DNA of 22,339 bases from a virus. The number at the start of each line of letters is the position of its first letter. Position 1 is the first letter of the stretch. Under the pieces are notes generated by a model, which did not search any database, was not told where the DNA came from, and saw only the letters and a list, made by a program, of their open reading frames with translations. The stretch lies in UHGV virus genome UHGV-0337617; one strand, 5' to 3'. The position numbers and the translations under genes are program-made. Positions 3,129 through 7,447 of the stretch are shown here, piece after piece.

Positions 3129-4442
3129 TTAACTTACTGATTTTAATAAGCCTCTGGTGTCACTTTGGTGACTATGGGGCATCATTGGGACATAATCTGT
3201 CAGCTTCTGATTCAGCATTGCGATCTGTTCTGCATTGCTGTCAGTCATCCATGCTCCGTATACATTGAATACCATCTGGGCACTTGCATGGCCCATCTGG
3301 CTGGCAATGAAGCTTGGGTTTGCTCCGGCAGATAATGACCAGCACGCATAAGTGTGTCGTGACTGGTATGCCTTTCGATGCCTGATCCCTGCACGCTTAA
3401 TGGCTGTTTCCCATGAGTCACCTACAGAATCGACTTTGTAGACAAAACCTACCTGTTCGCTTTTTCTAACCACTTGAGGGTTAAACACGAAAGTACATTC
3501 ATGGTTCACTGAACGTCCATATTCACGTAGTTGCACCTTGATGTTGTACTGCTTACCCAGTCTTGTCATTTCAGCCTGATTTTTCAGGACACTGATAGCG
3601 GGCTGGATAAGGTGCACAACCCTGTTTGTGCTTGCTTCAGTTTTCGGTAGAGTGAACTCACCAAGTTTCGTATAATTGCGCCTGATGGTAATTGTTCCTG
3701 CCTTCAGATCGATATCTTCCCAGGCCAGGGAGACCAGTTCACCGTGACGCATTCCTGTGTACACAGCCAATGACCACAGGTTTTTCGTCTGCTGATGTCG
3801 GCAAGCATCTATCAGGCGAATAAATTCGTCACGAGTTAGCGGATCTGGCTCTGCCCTGGCTCTTTTAAGAGGCTTAATTCCCTGGAAGGGATTTGCTTCT
3901 AAGTAACCGTGATCTGCAGCAAACTGAAACATTCCAGCGATTGTCGTCATGTAATAATTTACAGTAACGACGCTCCGTCCTTTTGCTGCTGCTTTGTTTT
4001 TCGTTGAATTCTGATACCCGGTCAGCAAATCTTTCCTGATATACAGCAATTCCTCTTTGGTTACCGATGACACCAGTTTACTGCCTCCAATTTTCGGAAC
4101 CATCGTTCTTGCAACGGATTCATAGCGATTGAATGCATTTGCAGAGATTTCCATTCGTTTCAGATCCAGCCACTTTTCTTCAAGTTCCTTCACCGTAATT
4201 TCTTTTTTACTTACCCCAAAAGCCTGAAGGTTGGGGGAGTCAGGGAACTGTGCAGCATAATCAAAGCTTCCTGTGCGGATGGCAAAACATACTGATGTCC
4301 GCAGTTCCCCGGCGATCTTCCTGTTCTTGGCAGTGTCAGGGACACCAAGATTTTCCCTGACACGTTTACCTTTAAAATTAAACCAGATGCGTAATGTGCC
4401 GCCGTGGTTTTCGACGCCTGTTGGATATTTGACTTTATCCAT
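3129..4442 (-). CDS. int: Tyrosine recombinase / phage integrase
   Basis: 437 aa; C-terminal catalytic region with R...HxxR...Y pattern (GMRHGELVSL, RHTYACW, NVYGAW); GGAGGT RBS; xis-like gene immediately upstream. Confidence 0.9.
   Translation of the reverse strand: MDKVKYPTGVENHGGTLRIWFNFKGKRVRENLGVPDTAKNRKIAGELRTSVCFAIRTGSFDYAAQFPDSPNLQAFGVSKKEITVKELEEKWLDLKRMEISANAFNRYESVARTMVPKIGGSKLVSSVTKEELLYIRKDLLTGYQNSTKNKAAAKGRSVVTVNYYMTTIAGMFQFAADHGYLEANPFQGIKPLKRARAEPDPLTRDEFIRLIDACRHQQTKNLWSLAVYTGMRHGELVSLAWEDIDLKAGTITIRRNYTKLGEFTLPKTEASTNRVVHLIQPAISVLKNQAEMTRLGKQYNIKVQLREYGRSVNHECTFVFNPQVVRKSEQVGFVYKVDSVGDSWETAIKRAGIRHRKAYQSRHTYACWSLSAGANPSFIASQMGHASAQMVFNVYGAWMTDSNAEQIAMLNQKLTDYVPMMPHSHQSDTRGLLKSVS
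3174..3192. repeat. Second copy of TGGGGCAT(C)ATTGGGACA repeat at the 3' end of int; candidate arm-type site
   Basis: Matches 2965-2982 except one base; lies inside the last codons of int. Confidence 0.4.
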
Positions 4443-4497
4443 CGATACCTCCAGACGCCCAAGAGCGATACGAGCTTACATATTTCATGATATTAAA

Positions 4498-4734
4498 TCA
4501 CCTGGGTTGTTTGTTTTTCATTGAGGCGACCCAGGCATCTATTGCTTTTCTGTTATACATACATTCACTGGAAGGCTTTGGATTACCGTCTGGTGATACG
4601 TGAATATACTCTCTTCCAACCATCCAGCATTCTTTCCGGGCCCGAAGAATTGTGCCTGGTTTGAGCCCGGTAATTGCGATAAGAACGCTTTCACAAACCC
4701 ATTCATTGGGAGCCAGTTGAATCACATTGCCCAT
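4498..4734 (-). CDS. xis: Excisionase-like DNA-binding protein
   Basis: 78-aa basic protein directly upstream of int in the same orientation; GAGGT RBS. Confidence 0.65.
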   Translation of the reverse strand: MGNVIQLAPNEWVCESVLIAITGLKPGTILRARKECWMVGREYIHVSPDGNPKPSSECMYNRKAIDAWVASMKNKQPR

Positions 4735-4742
4735 GTATTACC

Positions 4743-4889
4743 TCACACAACACTCAGCCCACGGCAGTGGCACCACACTTCAAACATTCGTTTCACAATT
4801 TCACGACAGTAGAAGCCGTCAACATCTCGCGTCAGGTCATAGCGATTGCCGTAACGCTGGCGCACCCATAGCTCAAACGCTTTATTCAT
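4743..4889 (-). CDS. Small hypothetical protein (48 aa), not in supplied ORF track
   Basis: ATG preceded by AAGGAAG RBS; its stop codon sits inside the xis RBS (operon-like packing); MNKAFELWVRQRYGNRYDLTRDVDGFYCREIVKRMFEVWCHCRGLSVV. Confidence 0.35.
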   Translation of the reverse strand: MNKAFELWVRQRYGNRYDLTRDVDGFYCREIVKRMFEVWCHCRGLSVV

Positions 4890-5538: not shown

Positions 5539-5579
5539 CTGCTTTTCCCTTAGCCCGACGGCCTGCCGGGCATATTAAG

Positions 5580-6407
5580 TTATTTAACCTGGATAAATGG
5601 TGTATTGGCACCGCTGGTCATGTATTGCGGCAGCGTGCCGTTCCATTTATTGATGGCTTCCAGCTCCATAACACCGGGGTTCTGACGCAGAGCTTCACCG
5701 CGTAAACGAATAGCATCGGCTTCAGCCTGGGCTTTTGTGCGAATCGCATCAGCCTGTCCGGCAGCTTCCGCGCGCAACATGTTGGCTTCCGCTTCGCGCT
5801 GTTTTACTTCCTGCTCGCGTTGCAGAGTTTTCTGGTTCGCCGTGACTTTGGCATTAATGCTGTCGATAACAGTAGGCGGGTACTCCGGCTTACCCACATA
5901 TGAGAGGCTTATTACCTGAATACCGATGGGCGTCATTTCTTCCTGAATGTCTTTAAGAGCTGCATCCAGCAGCTCAGACTTGCCGCCGTCGATAAATTTG
6001 TCGGTGGTCATTTTGCTGGCCAGTCGGTTGAGTGCGTCGGCTATCTTCTGGCGCAGGTCGGTGTCGGTAATGTCGTCCACGCCTTTGCGGTAGGTCTGAA
6101 AGACTGTGGTAACTTTGGATGGATCAACCTTGTAGGCTACTCCGATGTGGTAACCAATGGTTGTTCCATCGCTCATCTGGAAACTGAATGGATCATCGTA
6201 GGTCTTCATCTGCTTAAAGGTCGGGAAGATATAAACTTCAGTGTTCCAGCCTGTCCAGTAGCGACCAACACCGACCACTTCACCGACGCCTTTGTCGTCG
6301 CCAAGTTTGTTGACTTTGATGCCCACATTACCAGGCTCAACACGATCACAACCGACAAGGCCAATGGCAGGCAGAACAATGGCTAAAGAAAAAATAATTT
6401 TTTTCAT
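5580..6407 (-). CDS. SPFH/band-7 (prohibitin/stomatin-like) domain lipoprotein
   Basis: 275 aa; signal peptide with lipobox LVGC; central band-7-like region and C-terminal Ala/Glu/Arg-rich coiled coil (AEANMLRAEAAGQADAIRTKAQAEADAIR). Confidence 0.75.
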   Translation of the reverse strand: MKKIIFSLAIVLPAIGLVGCDRVEPGNVGIKVNKLGDDKGVGEVVGVGRYWTGWNTEVYIFPTFKQMKTYDDPFSFQMSDGTTIGYHIGVAYKVDPSKVTTVFQTYRKGVDDITDTDLRQKIADALNRLASKMTTDKFIDGGKSELLDAALKDIQEEMTPIGIQVISLSYVGKPEYPPTVIDSINAKVTANQKTLQREQEVKQREAEANMLRAEAAGQADAIRTKAQAEADAIRLRGEALRQNPGVMELEAINKWNGTLPQYMTSGANTPFIQVK

Positions 6408-6592
6408 CTTTTATCCTTAGTGAAAGAAAGCCCCTTATAAATGGTATAAATACATGGCGGGGTTAGAAACGTCAGTGCAAAGCCAGAAATCACCGCTACC
6501 GTATCCTTCATTGATATCAGAAACGGGACGAGCAATCCGTAAATACATGCGATAATTGCCAGTGATATAACTATTCTGAAATAAATGTTCAT
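6404..6592 (-). CDS. Small two-helix membrane protein (62 aa) translationally coupled to the SPFH gene
   Basis: ATGA start/stop overlap with the SPFH gene; two hydrophobic segments. Confidence 0.5.
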   Translation of the reverse strand: MNIYFRIVISLAIIACIYGLLVPFLISMKDTVAVISGFALTFLTPPCIYTIYKGLSFTKDKR

Positions 6593-6652
6593 GGTCCTCC
6601 TGCTGTATTCAGCTTGCCTTATTTAATTGCGTCATGGTTAATTTCGTTTACG

Positions 6653-7045
6653 TCAGAATGGTTTTGTTGCCATCAGTTCGTAATATCCGGCGCTCCATGT
6701 GTCATATTTTCTGAACCATTTTTCTGTATACTGTTTCCTGGCGATGAGTCTGCGCAGTCGTCTGATTGTTCGCTGGTGTGCGCGGGTGTACTCTGTGGTT
6801 GATTCTCCACGTTTCCATATTTCATTCCCGTTGAAGATAAAACGCTTGTCAGGATGGCGTTGTCGGAATCCTGAACGTTCAAAAGCGCGGGTGGTCATAA
6901 AGAATGCCAGGTAACGAATTGCCGTTTTTCGAGTGAGGCATTTTTTTGTTCTTCCGTGATGTGTTACAAAAAATAACGGGCCGACGGGTGTATCATGTTT
7001 CTGTAATGCCTGGTCAATGGCGCTGGCGGTGCGGTTGTCGATCAT
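6653..7045 (-). CDS. Hypothetical basic protein (130 aa)
   Basis: ORF in leftward operon; Arg/Lys-rich C-terminus. Confidence 0.5.
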   Translation of the reverse strand: MIDNRTASAIDQALQKHDTPVGPLFFVTHHGRTKKCLTRKTAIRYLAFFMTTRAFERSGFRQRHPDKRFIFNGNEIWKRGESTTEYTRAHQRTIRRLRRLIARKQYTEKWFRKYDTWSAGYYELMATKPF

Positions 7046-7260
7046 TTCTTTATTTCTCCCGAATAACGTTCATGACTCATTATTTCCCAGTTCCGGCCGT
7101 CGTCTTTCGATAACAGCCGCCAGCGACGGTTAACCTTCAGACTGAGATATCCGTTGCGCTGTATCCGATGCGGGAATATACGTCGGCATCTGTACCGCCG
7201 CAGGACCAGCAACGCCTGCTGGTGGACCCACTCAGGAATTCGCGTTGCTGTTAATGTCAC
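7042..7260 (-). CDS. Hypothetical small basic protein (72 aa)
   Basis: 4-nt overlap with downstream gene; Arg-rich. Confidence 0.45.
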   Translation of the reverse strand: MTLTATRIPEWVHQQALLVLRRYRCRRIFPHRIQRNGYLSLKVNRRWRLLSKDDGRNWEIMSHERYSGEIKK

Positions 7261-7447
7261 TGGTTTCCTCCTGAGCAGGTGCTGTTATCTGATACCCCGC
7301 TCTTTCTGCCAGCCATATGAATGTATCCATGCTGGCAATCAGCTCTCCATCGCGGACTTTGCAGACATCTGTTACCTGGCCATTTTCAATTGTCATAACG
7401 ATCTGCACTTTTTCGTGCACAACAGATACAGGGGATAAATTAGCCAT
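7232..7447 (-). CDS. Hypothetical protein (71 aa)
   Basis: ORF in leftward operon, overlaps neighbours by a few codons. Confidence 0.4.
   Translation of the reverse strand: MANLSPVSVVHEKVQIVMTIENGQVTDVCKVRDGELIASMDTFIWLAERAGYQITAPAQEETSDINSNANS

What the first reader, a model, noticed from the sequence alone, without database searches (positions are those of the whole stretch)
5580..6592. SPFH/band-7 lipoprotein coupled to a small membrane protein in the early-left operon
A lipobox-bearing SPFH-domain protein with a long coiled-coil tail is translationally coupled (ATGA) to a 62-aa two-helix membrane protein. SPFH proteins usually work with a membrane partner; finding such a pair in a phage early operon suggests an envelope-associated accessory role such as superinfection exclusion.
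Basis: partly seen in the sequence, partly recalled or inferred. Interest (0 to 1): 0.6.

Follow-up and report, generated by a model that had tools for sequence, protein, structure and literature searches.

The report
Phage SPFH lipoprotein with hairpin partner
Two overlapping early genes of an E. coli prophage encode a lipid-anchored, periplasm-facing SPFH (HflK/prohibitin-like) scaffold protein and a tiny two-helix membrane protein; the pair travels together, and is sometimes fused, in many unrelated phages, but its function is still untested.

Summary
On the minus strand, a 62-aa two-helix membrane protein (6404-6592) overlaps by ATGA a 275-aa lipoprotein precursor (5580-6407). That precursor has a Band_7/SPFH domain and a 65-residue helix. 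Both lie in the leftward early operon of a phiP27-like prophage at yecE.

New here: the small protein is a conserved family (invariant Pro and Ser in a P-x-L-I-S turn motif) found directly upstream of the SPFH gene. This holds in Enterobacterales, Sutterella and Xanthomonadales, and in lambdoid, P2-like, P1-like, SSU5-like, N4-like and rV5-like phages. In about 17 of 150 family representatives it sits in one reading frame with the lipoprotein precursor. The reverse look-up gave SPFH immediately downstream in 4 of 4 cases.

The partner is not NfeD. The SPFH protein is structurally closest to HflK/C and prohibitins, but it is not an HflK or HflC orthologue.

An acidic +2 residue, natural Cys-less signal-anchor variants and the fusions place it on the periplasmic face of the inner membrane.

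No defence-system model matches, and no paper found assigns a function. Superinfection exclusion remains a guess.

Verdict: a real, widespread phage cassette, annotated but uncharacterised; a new variant of the SPFH-plus-partner theme; moderate interest.

The parts
6404..6592 (-). Small partner gene: a 62-aa hairpin inner-membrane protein (TM1 about aa 4-27, TM2 about aa 32-52, basic C-terminal tail; predicted N-in/C-in).
   Evidence: ORF and hydropathy. PHROG_1130 'membrane protein' at E=3.6e-23. dN/dS 0.08-0.30. Family profile A4 has invariant Pro23 and Ser27. Annotated in RefSeq as hypothetical protein WP_001538855.1.
6500..6526 (-). Conserved turn motif P-F-L-I-S-M-K-D-T (family consensus P-x-L/M-I/V-S-A/S-x-S/D-T) at the periplasmic end of TM1. 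This is the only part of the partner exposed to the periplasm.
   Evidence: Alignments of 28-33 partners and fused N-termini; coordinates.
6595..6600 (-). Shine-Dalgarno sequence GGAGGA, ending 2 nt before the start codon of the small gene.
   Evidence: Read directly from the sequence.
6404..6407 (-). ATGA overlap: the stop codon of the small gene overlaps the start codon of the SPFH gene (translational coupling). An AAGGA lies 5 nt upstream of the ATG.
   Evidence: The same 4-nt overlap is present in 79 of 80 close loci, in P88 and in Pantoea.
5580..6407 (-). SPFH/Band-7 lipoprotein precursor gene, 275 aa.
   Evidence: Pfam PF01145 at E=2.9e-31. PHROG_200 'lipoprotein' at E=9e-115. RefSeq WP_001538856.1 'SPFH domain-containing protein'.
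6348..6407 (-). Type II (lipoprotein) signal peptide, aa 1-19, plus lipobox L-V-G-C (6348-6359). Cys20 is the lipidation site and Asp21 is the +2 residue.
   Evidence: Cys is nearly invariant in the family and invariant in the 19 fused forms. The +2 residue is acidic in all 108 lipobox-bearing enteric relatives.
5883..6347 (-). Alpha/beta SPFH domain (aa 21-175), beginning only a few residues after the lipidated Cys.
   Evidence: AF2 model, pLDDT mostly above 95. Foldseek top hits are HflK, PHB1/2, HflC, erlin and stomatin at E = 1e-14 to 1e-11.
5682..5876 (-). 65-residue A/E/Q/R-rich helix (aa 178-242), the equivalent of the wall helix (CC1) of SPFH cages.
   Evidence: AF2 secondary structure; coordinates and composition.
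5628..5648 (-). C-terminal family signature K-W-N-G-T-L-P. Trp and Gly are invariant and Pro nearly invariant across 60 diverse members.
   Evidence: Alignment A1 (numbering there is offset by -1); coordinates.

Best explanation
This is a self-contained two-gene phage cassette. It builds a two-subunit SPFH scaffold on the periplasmic face of the host inner membrane during the early phase of lytic growth.

Shown by sequence analysis:
1. The upstream gene makes a 62-aa N-in/C-in hairpin protein.
2. The downstream gene is translationally coupled to it and makes a lipoprotein precursor.
3. The mature lipoprotein is an SPFH domain followed by a 65-residue helix, of the HflK/C-prohibitin-erlin structural class.
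4. The two genes are linked or fused across very distant phages.

Inferred:
1. Lgt and LspA lipidate and cleave the precursor at Cys20.
2. Asp at +2 keeps the mature protein in the inner membrane.
3. Like every solved SPFH protein, it oligomerises through its long helix into a ring or cage that encloses a membrane patch.
4. The hairpin protein supplies in trans the in-membrane 'fence' that HflK/C, prohibitins and stomatin carry as their own N-terminal anchors. It contacts the lipidated N-terminus and the SPFH domain through its conserved P-x-L-I-S turn.

Biological role (inference only): an envelope-level function of the infected cell. My leading guess, at about 0.3, is protection of the inner membrane against further insult, such as blocking DNA entry by secondary phages or preventing premature membrane failure. 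The architectural part of this explanation is about 0.8 likely.
For: Anatomy.

Structural class:
- Foldseek against the PDB: HflK 7vhq_E at 2.9e-14, then PHB2, PHB1, HflC, erlin, stomatin, flotillin and QmcA.
- Profile against PDB sequences: PHB1 at 8e-11, HflK at 3e-7.

Partnership:
- The partner lies directly upstream in 13 of 17 diverse genome loci. In two more, IS1-like ORFs separate the pair; in two, the partner is damaged.
- It was found in phages not used to build the profile: SSU5 (9e-19), 4MG (2e-13), phiEaP8 (5e-13) and TL (2e-4).
- About 17 of 150 representatives, clustered at 50% identity, carry the hairpin in frame before the signal peptide, and the lipobox Cys is invariant in them.
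- A reverse look-up from four partner clusters found a Band_7 gene immediately downstream every time.
- Analogous small 2-3-TM ORFs overlap the SPFH lipoprotein start in PhiSH19 and phiCbK.

Inner-membrane, periplasm-facing location:
- The +2 residue is acidic in 108 of 108 lipobox-bearing enteric relatives.
- A widespread clade has Cys replaced by Tyr, and 37 of 150 representatives have no lipobox. Both keep an N-terminal hydrophobic anchor.
- The fused model has three helices and then the SPFH domain.

Early lytic expression: the cassette sits in the leftward early operon here, in the early operon of P88, next to recombination genes in SSU5, and in early regions of N4-like, rV5-like and LUZ24-like virulent phages.

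Host range: essentially all 413 phage genomes with a homologue infect Gram-negative hosts.
Against: - Nothing about assembly, localisation or function has been measured.
- The partner is only 21-40% identical between cassettes whose mature SPFH is 95-98% identical. Any contact must therefore rest on very few residues, or on the co-varying signal peptide.
- Only about five partner residues face the periplasm, where the SPFH domain sits.
- Outside the enterics the +2 residue is mostly Ser, Thr or Gly, and the Pasteurella prophage relative was reported in outer-membrane vesicles (PMC9872710). An outer-membrane location in some hosts is not excluded.
- No PADLOC model matches, and no known exclusion protein is homologous.
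- In 4MG and TL one unrelated ORF separates the two genes.
Confidence: 0.5

Rival explanations
1. HflK/C mimic. The periplasm-facing SPFH ring engages or sequesters the host FtsH protease, or another inner-membrane protease. This would change the turnover of phage regulators (CII, CIII or Xis-like proteins) or of phage membrane proteins, much as lambda CIII does from the same operon position.
For: - HflK, HflC and the prohibitins are the closest solved relatives by fold and by sequence profile, and they share the topology; HflK/C regulates FtsH and the prohibitins regulate related mitochondrial membrane AAA proteases (my own knowledge).
- The gene sits in the leftward early operon of a temperate phage.
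- Others have speculated the same for a P4-like satellite (PMC4936722).
Against: - NCBIfam HflC and HflK scores are 26 and 24 bits against cut-offs of 134 and 159.
- There is a single SPFH gene rather than a K/C pair.
- Sequence identity to HflK/C is 16-20%.
- The cassette is common in strictly virulent phages, which make no lysogeny decision.
- The 'FtsH' annotated near the cassette in phiEaP8 is only an AAA ATPase without a peptidase domain.
Confidence: 0.17
2. Counter-defence or membrane stabiliser. The scaffold hardens or organises the inner membrane so that host abortive-infection effectors that kill by permeabilising the membrane act too late, and so that holins do not trigger prematurely.
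For: - The cassette lies in accessory early regions next to known anti-defence genes in two unrelated contexts: an Acb2/Tad1-hairpin gene two genes upstream in L102, and a Tad2-like gene about 700 nt downstream in E. coli phage-plasmid contigs L120-122.
- It occurs in both virulent and temperate phages.
Against: - Guilt by association in two loci only.
- The neighbours in the window itself (DUF5406, PHROG_1886, a ParE-like gene) are not known anti-defence genes.
- No mechanism is known by which a periplasmic SPFH ring would block pore formers.
Confidence: 0.13
3. Lysogenic-conversion or virulence lipoprotein. The lipoprotein is made by the lysogen, reaches the cell surface or vesicles, and acts on the animal host, for example as a TLR2 agonist.
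For: A prophage-encoded HflK/C-like protein of Pasteurella multocida (PM0222) is released in outer-membrane vesicles, activates TLR1/2 and contributes to virulence in mice (PMC9872710). Homology of PM0222 to this family was not tested.
Against: - No promoter or terminator sets the pair apart from the early lytic operon.
- The family is common in virulent phages of plant, soil and aquatic bacteria.
- The acidic +2 residue and the Cys-less variants argue for inner-membrane retention in enterics.
- TLR2 activation is a generic property of triacylated lipoproteins.
Confidence: 0.07
4. The small ORF is not a functional partner. It would be a chance ORF or leader, a holin-like toxin with its own role, or a canonical NfeD partner.
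For: - Its size, two helices, N-in/C-in topology and basic tail resemble class II holins.
- SPFH genes are classically paired with nfeD genes; for example qmcA-ybbJ also overlap by 4 nt.
Against: - Purifying selection, deep conservation of the motif, adjacency and fusions exclude a chance ORF.
- There is no OB-fold, no NfeD Pfam hit at E<=10, no hit to YbbJ in the PDB, and hhalign gives 6%.
- The prophage has a separate lysis cassette with a class II holin about 15 kb away.
Confidence: 0.05

Closest known systems
HflK/HflC (E. coli FtsH modulators) and the mitochondrial prohibitins PHB1/PHB2
   Same: - Best structural and profile matches.
- The same order of elements: N-terminal membrane anchor, SPFH domain, long wall helix, short C-terminal segment.
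- The same topology, with the SPFH domain on the non-cytoplasmic face of the energy-transducing membrane.
   Different: - 16-20% identity, and far below the HflK and HflC equivalog cut-offs.
- One SPFH gene rather than a heteromeric pair.
- Anchored by lipid rather than a transmembrane helix.
- Accompanied by a separate hairpin protein.
- No evidence of an FtsH client.
- Carried by phages.
SPFH-NfeD operons (QmcA-YbbJ, YqiK-YqiJ, archaeal stomatin-STOPP; structure 8z5g)
   Same: An SPFH gene translationally coupled to a small membrane protein that is thought to co-assemble with the cage. qmcA and ybbJ also overlap by 4 nt.
   Different: - The partner here is 57-89 aa and has no OB-fold domain.
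- It has no detectable similarity to NfeD or YbbJ.
- It is encoded upstream rather than downstream.
- The SPFH domain is periplasmic and lipid-anchored, whereas QmcA and YqiK face the cytoplasm.
PHROG_200 ('lipoprotein') and PHROG_1130 ('membrane protein'); phiP27 L05, P88 gp11/gp12, SSU5 gp061/gp062
   Same: The window genes are members (E=9e-115 and 3.6e-23). phiP27 L05 is 98% identical. In P88 and SSU5 both genes are already annotated side by side.
   Different: These are annotation bins without function. L05 and its relatives were historically mislabelled 'putative serine protease'. In phiP27, phiEaP8 and PhiSH19 the partner ORF is not annotated at all.
Early envelope-acting phage proteins: T4 Imm and Sp, T5 Llp, Cor
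   Same: From my own knowledge of these systems: small membrane proteins or lipoproteins made early in infection that act at the envelope.
   Different: No sequence or fold relationship, and none of them contains an SPFH domain. The resemblance is only in gene class and timing.

Membership tests
SPFH / Band 7 superfamily (PF01145) | Match to the Band_7 profile above the gathering score | tested here: met
   109.3 bits against a 23.6-bit cut-off, E=2.9e-31, aa 22-208, full profile 2-176 of 176.
SPFH / Band 7 superfamily (PF01145) | Alpha/beta SPFH fold followed by a long helix, as in the solved cage-forming members | tested here: met
   AF2 pLDDT 90.9. Foldseek probability 1.00 to HflK, PHB, erlin, stomatin, flotillin, QmcA and MVP.
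SPFH / Band 7 superfamily (PF01145) | Homo- or hetero-oligomeric ring or cage on a membrane | not testable with these tools
   Only single chains can be predicted here. This needs a multimer prediction, BN-PAGE or cryo-EM.
HflK / HflC (FtsH modulators) | Equivalog-level sequence match | tested here: not met
   TIGR01932 hflC: 26.2 bits against 134.4. TIGR01933 hflK: 23.6 bits against 159.4.
HflK / HflC (FtsH modulators) | Paired K and C subunits encoded together | tested here: not met
   There is a single SPFH gene. Its neighbour is a 62-aa hairpin without an SPFH domain.
HflK / HflC (FtsH modulators) | SPFH domain on the periplasmic face of the inner membrane | tested here: met
   At sequence level only: Sec/lipoprotein signal peptide, acidic +2 residue, Cys-less signal-anchor variants and fused 3-helix forms.
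HflK / HflC (FtsH modulators) | Physical and functional association with FtsH | not testable with these tools
   No data. The 'FtsH' neighbour annotated in phiEaP8 is an AAA ATPase without the M41 peptidase domain.
NfeD partner of SPFH proteins | C-terminal NfeD OB-fold domain (PF01957) | tested here: not met
   The protein is 62 aa and all of it is hairpin. No NfeD hit at E<=10 for three variants, or at E<=0.1 for 28 members.
NfeD partner of SPFH proteins | Homology of the membrane region to YbbJ or YqiJ | tested here: not met
   hhalign of profile A4 against E. coli YbbJ gives 6% probability. YbbJ of 8z5g was not among the PDB hits at E<=10. Only one template sequence was used, so power is limited.
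NfeD partner of SPFH proteins | Operon adjacency and translational coupling with the SPFH gene | tested here: met
   ATGA overlap, conserved widely.
Bacterial lipoprotein (Lgt/LspA/Lnt substrate) | Signal peptide ending in the lipobox [LVI][ASTVI][GAS]C | tested here: met
   MKK n-region, hydrophobic core, L-V-G-C with Cys20. Cys is nearly invariant in the family.
Bacterial lipoprotein (Lgt/LspA/Lnt substrate) | Actual acylation, and sorting (Asp +2 as the Lol-avoidance signal in Enterobacteriaceae) | not testable with these tools
   Asp21 is present, and the +2 residue is acidic in 108 of 108 enteric relatives. The effect of Arg at +3 and the real location need experiment.
Known anti-phage defence or superinfection-exclusion systems | Homology to a described defence or exclusion protein | tested here: not met
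   No PADLOC-DB v2 model matches either protein at E<=0.01. No such family appears in Pfam, NCBIfam or PHROGs.
Known anti-phage defence or superinfection-exclusion systems | Expression from the repressed prophage (own promoter) | tested here: inconclusive
   The consensus scan finds no promoter or terminator flanking the pair. Such scans are weak evidence, and no transcript data are available.
Class II holin | Small N-in/C-in two-helix protein encoded in the lysis cassette | tested here: not met
   The shape fits. However, the gene is in the early-left operon, about 15 kb from the prophage's own holin-lysozyme-spanin cassette, and there is no holin family hit.

The most novel reading that the evidence does not exclude
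Phages of more than ten unrelated lineages that infect Gram-negative hosts deploy, early in infection, a split SPFH cage made of a lipid-anchored periplasmic SPFH subunit and a hairpin 'fence' subunit. This would be a previously unrecognised class of envelope-protection system. It would either shut the inner membrane to secondary DNA injection or neutralise membrane-targeting abortive-infection effectors. In the fused variants, one precursor with an internal lipobox would be cut by signal peptidase II into both subunits, a mode of lipoprotein biogenesis not described so far.
Probability: 0.2. Interest if true: 0.75.

Novelty: new variant of a known kind. Interest (0 to 1): 0.5.

Why it matters
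SPFH proteins are now known to form membrane cages, but what most bacterial ones do is unclear, and why phages carry them is an open question. A 2026 phage genome paper says the reason 'remains unclear' (PMC13239085).

This analysis turns a lone 'lipoprotein' annotation into a defined two-component module:
- It has a recognisable partner family and a signature motif.
- It has natural fusions and natural Cys-less variants.
- It is present in about 0.8% of sequenced phage genomes (413 of 50,697) and about 10% of complete E. coli genomes (574 of 5,426).

That gives a compact, genetically tractable system for two things. It would show what a periplasm-facing SPFH scaffold does. It would also test whether phages use membrane microdomain scaffolds for exclusion, counter-defence or protease control.

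If the function proves mundane, the finding is still useful for annotation. The small gene is missed in several reference phage genomes, and the SPFH gene is still labelled 'serine protease' in many records.

Tried and rejected
1. NfeD hypothesis for the partner. Tested with Pfam at E<=10, 28 members scanned against Pfam, a profile against PDB sequences, and hhalign against YbbJ. All were negative.

2. Known defence system. PADLOC was negative for the pair and six neighbours.

3. FtsH link through the phiEaP8 neighbours annotated 'FtsH' and 'ClpX'. They are bare AAA ATPases, so this was rejected as evidence.

4. The 'superinfection exclusion protein' next to the SPFH gene of PhiSH19. It is a soluble acidic 106-aa protein of doubtful annotation. 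The real upstream neighbour is an unannotated 2-TM ORF.

5. Collection scans with broad alignments (A1, A2) failed for lack of conserved 7-mers. A scan of viral contigs with the fused P0143 found nothing. The viral scan with the window protein returned only relatives at 97% identity or more.

6. Internal translation starts in four fused ORFs. No convincing Shine-Dalgarno plus start combination was found, so fusion versus an internal start is unresolved.

7. Seven literature searches on SPFH, band 7 or NfeD together with phage, defence, exclusion or lipoprotein found no functional study of this family.

8. The stem-loop just after the SPFH stop codon has no T-run and was not called as a terminator.
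Full report
**1. What is in the sequence**

The finding's coordinates are right, but both genes are on the minus strand.

The 62-aa ORF (6404..6592) starts 2 nt after a GGAGGA (6595-6600). Its stop codon overlaps the ATG of the 275-aa ORF (5580..6407) in the tetranucleotide ATGA at 6404-6407. An AAGGA lies 5 nt before that ATG.

The small protein has two hydrophobic helices (about aa 4-27 and 32-52) joined by a five-residue turn. It ends in a basic tail (KGLSFTKDKR), which by the positive-inside rule puts both termini in the cytoplasm.

The large protein begins MKKIIFSLAIVLPAIGLVG|CD, a textbook lipoprotein signal peptide with lipobox LVGC and Asp at +2. It matches Pfam Band_7 over the whole profile (E=2.9e-31).

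An AlphaFold2 model built on 60 diverse relatives is confident (pLDDT 90.9). It shows an alpha/beta SPFH domain starting right after the Cys, a single 65-residue A/E/Q/R-rich helix (aa 178-242), a short helix, and a floppy tail containing the family signature KW(N/D)GxLP.

No promoter-like or terminator-like site separates or flanks the pair.

**2. Where it sits**

The window is an E. coli chromosome segment identical to strain ZH063 and at least a dozen other genomes. It carries a phiP27-like prophage next to the yecE-type DUF72 gene.

The pair lies in the leftward run of small genes between the LexA-type repressor and xis/int, so 'early-left operon' is fair.

RefSeq already annotates both genes: 'SPFH domain-containing protein' WP_001538856.1 and a hypothetical protein WP_001538855.1. 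Older phage records call the SPFH gene 'putative serine protease' or 'lipoprotein'. Both proteins fall in PHROGs families without function (PHROG_200 and PHROG_1130).

DNA matches occur in 574 of 5,426 complete E. coli genomes, including 241 places on plasmids.

**3. The SPFH family**

An exhaustive HMMER search found 225 clusters (at 50% identity) at E<1e-30 and 961 at E<1e-10.

By a crude lipobox pattern, most representatives (113 of 150) are lipoproteins. Most of the others examined keep an uncleaved hydrophobic N-terminal anchor.

tblastn finds a homologue in 413 of 50,697 phage genomes:
- Temperate phages: phiP27 and Stx2 phages, P2-like P88, P1-like phage-plasmids, SSU5-like phage-plasmids.
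- Virulent phages: Schitoviridae, Vequintavirinae, Ounavirinae, Bruynoghevirus, phiCbK-like, jumbo, Lak and crAss-like phages.
- Nearly all of them infect Gram-negative hosts.

The closest solved structures are HflK (7vhq_E, E=2.9e-14), prohibitin 1/2, HflC, erlin 1/2, stomatin, flotillin and QmcA. By sequence profile, prohibitin 1 (8e-11) and HflK (3e-7) lead.

It is not an HflK or HflC orthologue. NCBIfam scores are 24-26 bits against cut-offs of 134-159.

**4. The partner is real, conserved and specific**

This is the main new result.

*Close relatives.* In 79 of 80 loci the 62-aa ORF is intact with the same overlap.

*Other enteric cassettes.* In P88, RCS47 and SSU5 an ORF of 66-78 aa occupies the same place.

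*More distant genomes.* In the genome collection the ORF directly upstream of the SPFH gene is a 57-89-aa two-helix protein in the following:
- Pantoea, Yersinia, Kluyvera, Lelliottia and Chimaeribacter;
- three Sutterella contigs;
- Luteibacter and Dyella;
- an N4-like phage contig mis-binned as an archaeon.

*The motif.* All share a motif at the end of helix 1 and the turn: P-x-(L/M)-(I/V)-S-(A/S)-x-(S/D)-T. Pro and Ser are invariant in 28 sequences.

*Detection in other phages.* A profile of these sequences also detects the partner in phages not used to build it:
- SSU5 gp061, E=9e-19;
- 4MG gp235, 2e-13, with one ORF in between;
- an unannotated ORF of phiEaP8, 5e-13;
- Pseudomonas phage TL gp10, 2e-4, with one ORF in between.

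*The exceptions are instructive*:
- In Shigella and E. coli loci L084 and L085, ORFs that I read as IS1-type (not scanned against any family library) separate the two genes.
- In a Symbiopectobacterium locus both genes are decayed.
- In one Buttiauxella locus the partner has lost its start.

*Reverse look-up.* Starting from four partner clusters (Shigella virus Moo19, Turicimonas muris, a metagenomic phage and an E. coli phage-plasmid), a Band_7 gene lies immediately downstream in all eight places read.

*More divergent SPFH lipoproteins.* These have analogous though unrecognisably diverged small membrane ORFs overlapping their starts:
- PhiSH19 has an unannotated 72-aa 2-TM ORF with a 4-nt overlap.
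- phiCbK gp237 is a 116-aa 3-TM protein.

*Selection.* dN/dS of the small ORF is 0.08-0.30.

**5. Fusions**

About 17 of the 150 family representatives are 60-100 residues longer at the N-terminus. The extension is the hairpin protein, motif included, in frame with the signal peptide and lipobox.

The lipobox Cys is invariant in all 19 aligned fusions.

Four such genes were read at DNA level. They are uninterrupted ORFs in phage-like early regions, and none has a convincing internal ribosome-binding site.

An AF2 model of one of them gives helix 3-30, helix 35-58, a short linker helix, helix 76-95 (the former signal peptide) and then the SPFH domain.

Two readings remain open. Either these are anchored three-helix SPFH proteins, or signal peptidase II cuts them at the internal lipobox. 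The invariant Cys favours the second reading, but this is inference.

**6. Where the protein acts**

Four independent lines place the SPFH domain on the periplasmic face of the inner membrane:
- In all 108 lipobox-bearing relatives from Enterobacterales the +2 residue is acidic (CDR 100, CDN 3, CEY 5). Asp at +2 is the classical Lol-avoidance signal in E. coli (established knowledge; the influence of Arg at +3 is uncertain).
- A widespread SSU5-like phage-plasmid clade has Tyr in place of the Cys, which leaves an uncleavable signal anchor.
- A quarter of the family representatives lack a lipobox but keep the anchor.
- The partner and the fusions are integral inner-membrane proteins.

There are caveats. 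Outside the enterics the +2 residue is mostly Ser, Thr or Gly. The Pasteurella prophage protein PM0222 was reported in outer-membrane vesicles (PMC9872710), and its homology to this family was not tested here.

**7. An oddity**

Between the window, P88 and RCS47 the mature SPFH is 95-98% identical. The signal peptide is only 30-60% identical and the partner only 21-40%.

DNA similarity to P88 and the P1-like phages starts just after the lipobox. The cassette is therefore mosaic: a nearly fixed periplasmic part combined with very different membrane-embedded parts.

Either the partner needs little more than its shape and the P-x-L-I-S turn, or the signal peptide and partner co-vary as a unit. 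I could not distinguish these.

**8. Mechanism**

Shown: gene structure, coupling, fold class, linkage, and sequence-level topology.

Inferred from what is established for every solved SPFH protein (HflK/C, prohibitin, stomatin, flotillin, erlin, QmcA): the protein oligomerises through its long helix into a ring or cage over a membrane patch.

My proposal is that the hairpin provides in trans the transmembrane 'fence' that other SPFH proteins carry as their own N-terminal anchor. This explains three things:
- the coupling, which would give matched stoichiometry;
- the fusions;
- the fact that Cys-less variants with their own anchor exist.

The biological role is not determinable from sequence. 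The cassette always sits among early or accessory genes of the lytic programme, in virulent as well as temperate phages, and only in phages of diderm hosts. This argues for a job in the infected cell's envelope rather than lysogenic conversion.

I rank the possible roles as follows:
- Protection or insulation of the inner membrane, including exclusion of secondary infection: about 0.3.
- HflK/C-like control of FtsH or another membrane protease: about 0.17.
- Counter-defence or stabilisation against membrane-targeting abortive infection or premature holin triggering: about 0.13. The only hints are an Acb2/Tad1-type gene and a Tad2-like gene nearby in two unrelated contexts.
- A virulence lipoprotein: about 0.07.

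**9. Comparison with what is known**

It works like an SPFH scaffold with a dedicated partner, so the nearest concept is the SPFH-NfeD operon. It fails the NfeD membership tests: no OB-fold, no Pfam or PDB match, and hhalign gives 6%.

It resembles HflK/C in fold and topology but fails the orthology tests. It matches no PADLOC defence model.

No paper in the searched library assigns a function. The most recent one to mention such a phage gene says the reason for its presence is unclear (PMC13239085).

**10. Verdict**

The genes themselves are already annotated and common.

What is new is the definition of the partner family, its near-obligate linkage and fusion with the SPFH lipoprotein across phage lineages, and the evidence for an inner-membrane, periplasm-facing split SPFH scaffold.

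Novelty: a new variant of a known kind. Interest: moderate (0.5).

Noticed in passing
window 7042-7447 (-): A 72-aa ParE-like toxin-domain protein (Pfam PF24732, E=1.6e-17; 7042..7260) overlaps a 71-aa upstream ORF (7232..7447, PHROG_340). This may be a toxin-antitoxin-like pair in the same early-left operon.
   Followed up: no
L084 4024-4998 and L085 (Shigella flexneri, E. coli ECMA0423): ORFs that I read as IS1-type (an InsA-like ORF; not scanned against any family library) sit exactly between the partner gene and the SPFH gene. The insertion alters the partner's C-terminus and uncouples the pair. This SPFH variant heads a cluster of 1,366 member sequences (P0001).
   Followed up: partly
P0113-P0119 (SSU5-like phage-plasmid clade, E. 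coli and Enterobacteriaceae; up to 175 contigs per cluster): The lipobox Cys is replaced by Tyr (…IIGYDRVEPGF…). These widespread variants cannot be lipidated and must stay anchored by the uncleaved signal peptide.
   Followed up: partly
L114 2432-2650 (-), Salmonella phage PhiSH19: An unannotated 72-aa two-helix ORF overlaps the start of the phage's SPFH lipoprotein by 4 nt. The neighbouring gene annotated 'superinfection exclusion protein' is a soluble acidic protein of doubtful annotation.
   Followed up: partly
L106 2274-2516, Erwinia phage phiEaP8; L001 3304-3492 (-), phiP27: The partner ORF is missing from the reference annotations. In phiEaP8 the lipoprotein start seems to have been called too far upstream as a result.
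   Followed up: partly
L100 (JANQNF010000027.1, 'MAG: archaeon isolate PL23a_bin.95'): The contig carries N4-like phage RNA polymerase (PHROG_2051, E=2e-172) and HNH genes around the SPFH cassette. It looks like a bacteriophage contig binned into an archaeal MAG.
   Followed up: partly
L102 218-520; L120-L122 about 4230-4805: An Acb2/Tad1-hairpin family gene lies two genes upstream of a fused SPFH gene in a metagenomic phage contig. A Tad2-like gene lies about 700 nt downstream of the cassette in E. coli phage-plasmid contigs. The cassette therefore tends to sit in accessory regions that also hold anti-defence genes.
   Followed up: no
window 5541-5575 (-): A G+C-rich inverted repeat (GCCCGGCAGGCCGTCGGGC) lies just after the SPFH stop codon and before the DUF5406 gene. 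It has no T-run and was not called as a terminator. It could be an RNA-stability or processing element.
   Followed up: no
L003 3864-6093, phage-plasmid RCS47: From my own recollection of the P1 map, P1 carries other accessory genes (tciA-C) at this position; P1 itself was not examined here. In RCS47 the cassette lies among tRNA genes, between ban (dnaB) and upl/plp. This suggests a variable accessory locus.
   Followed up: no
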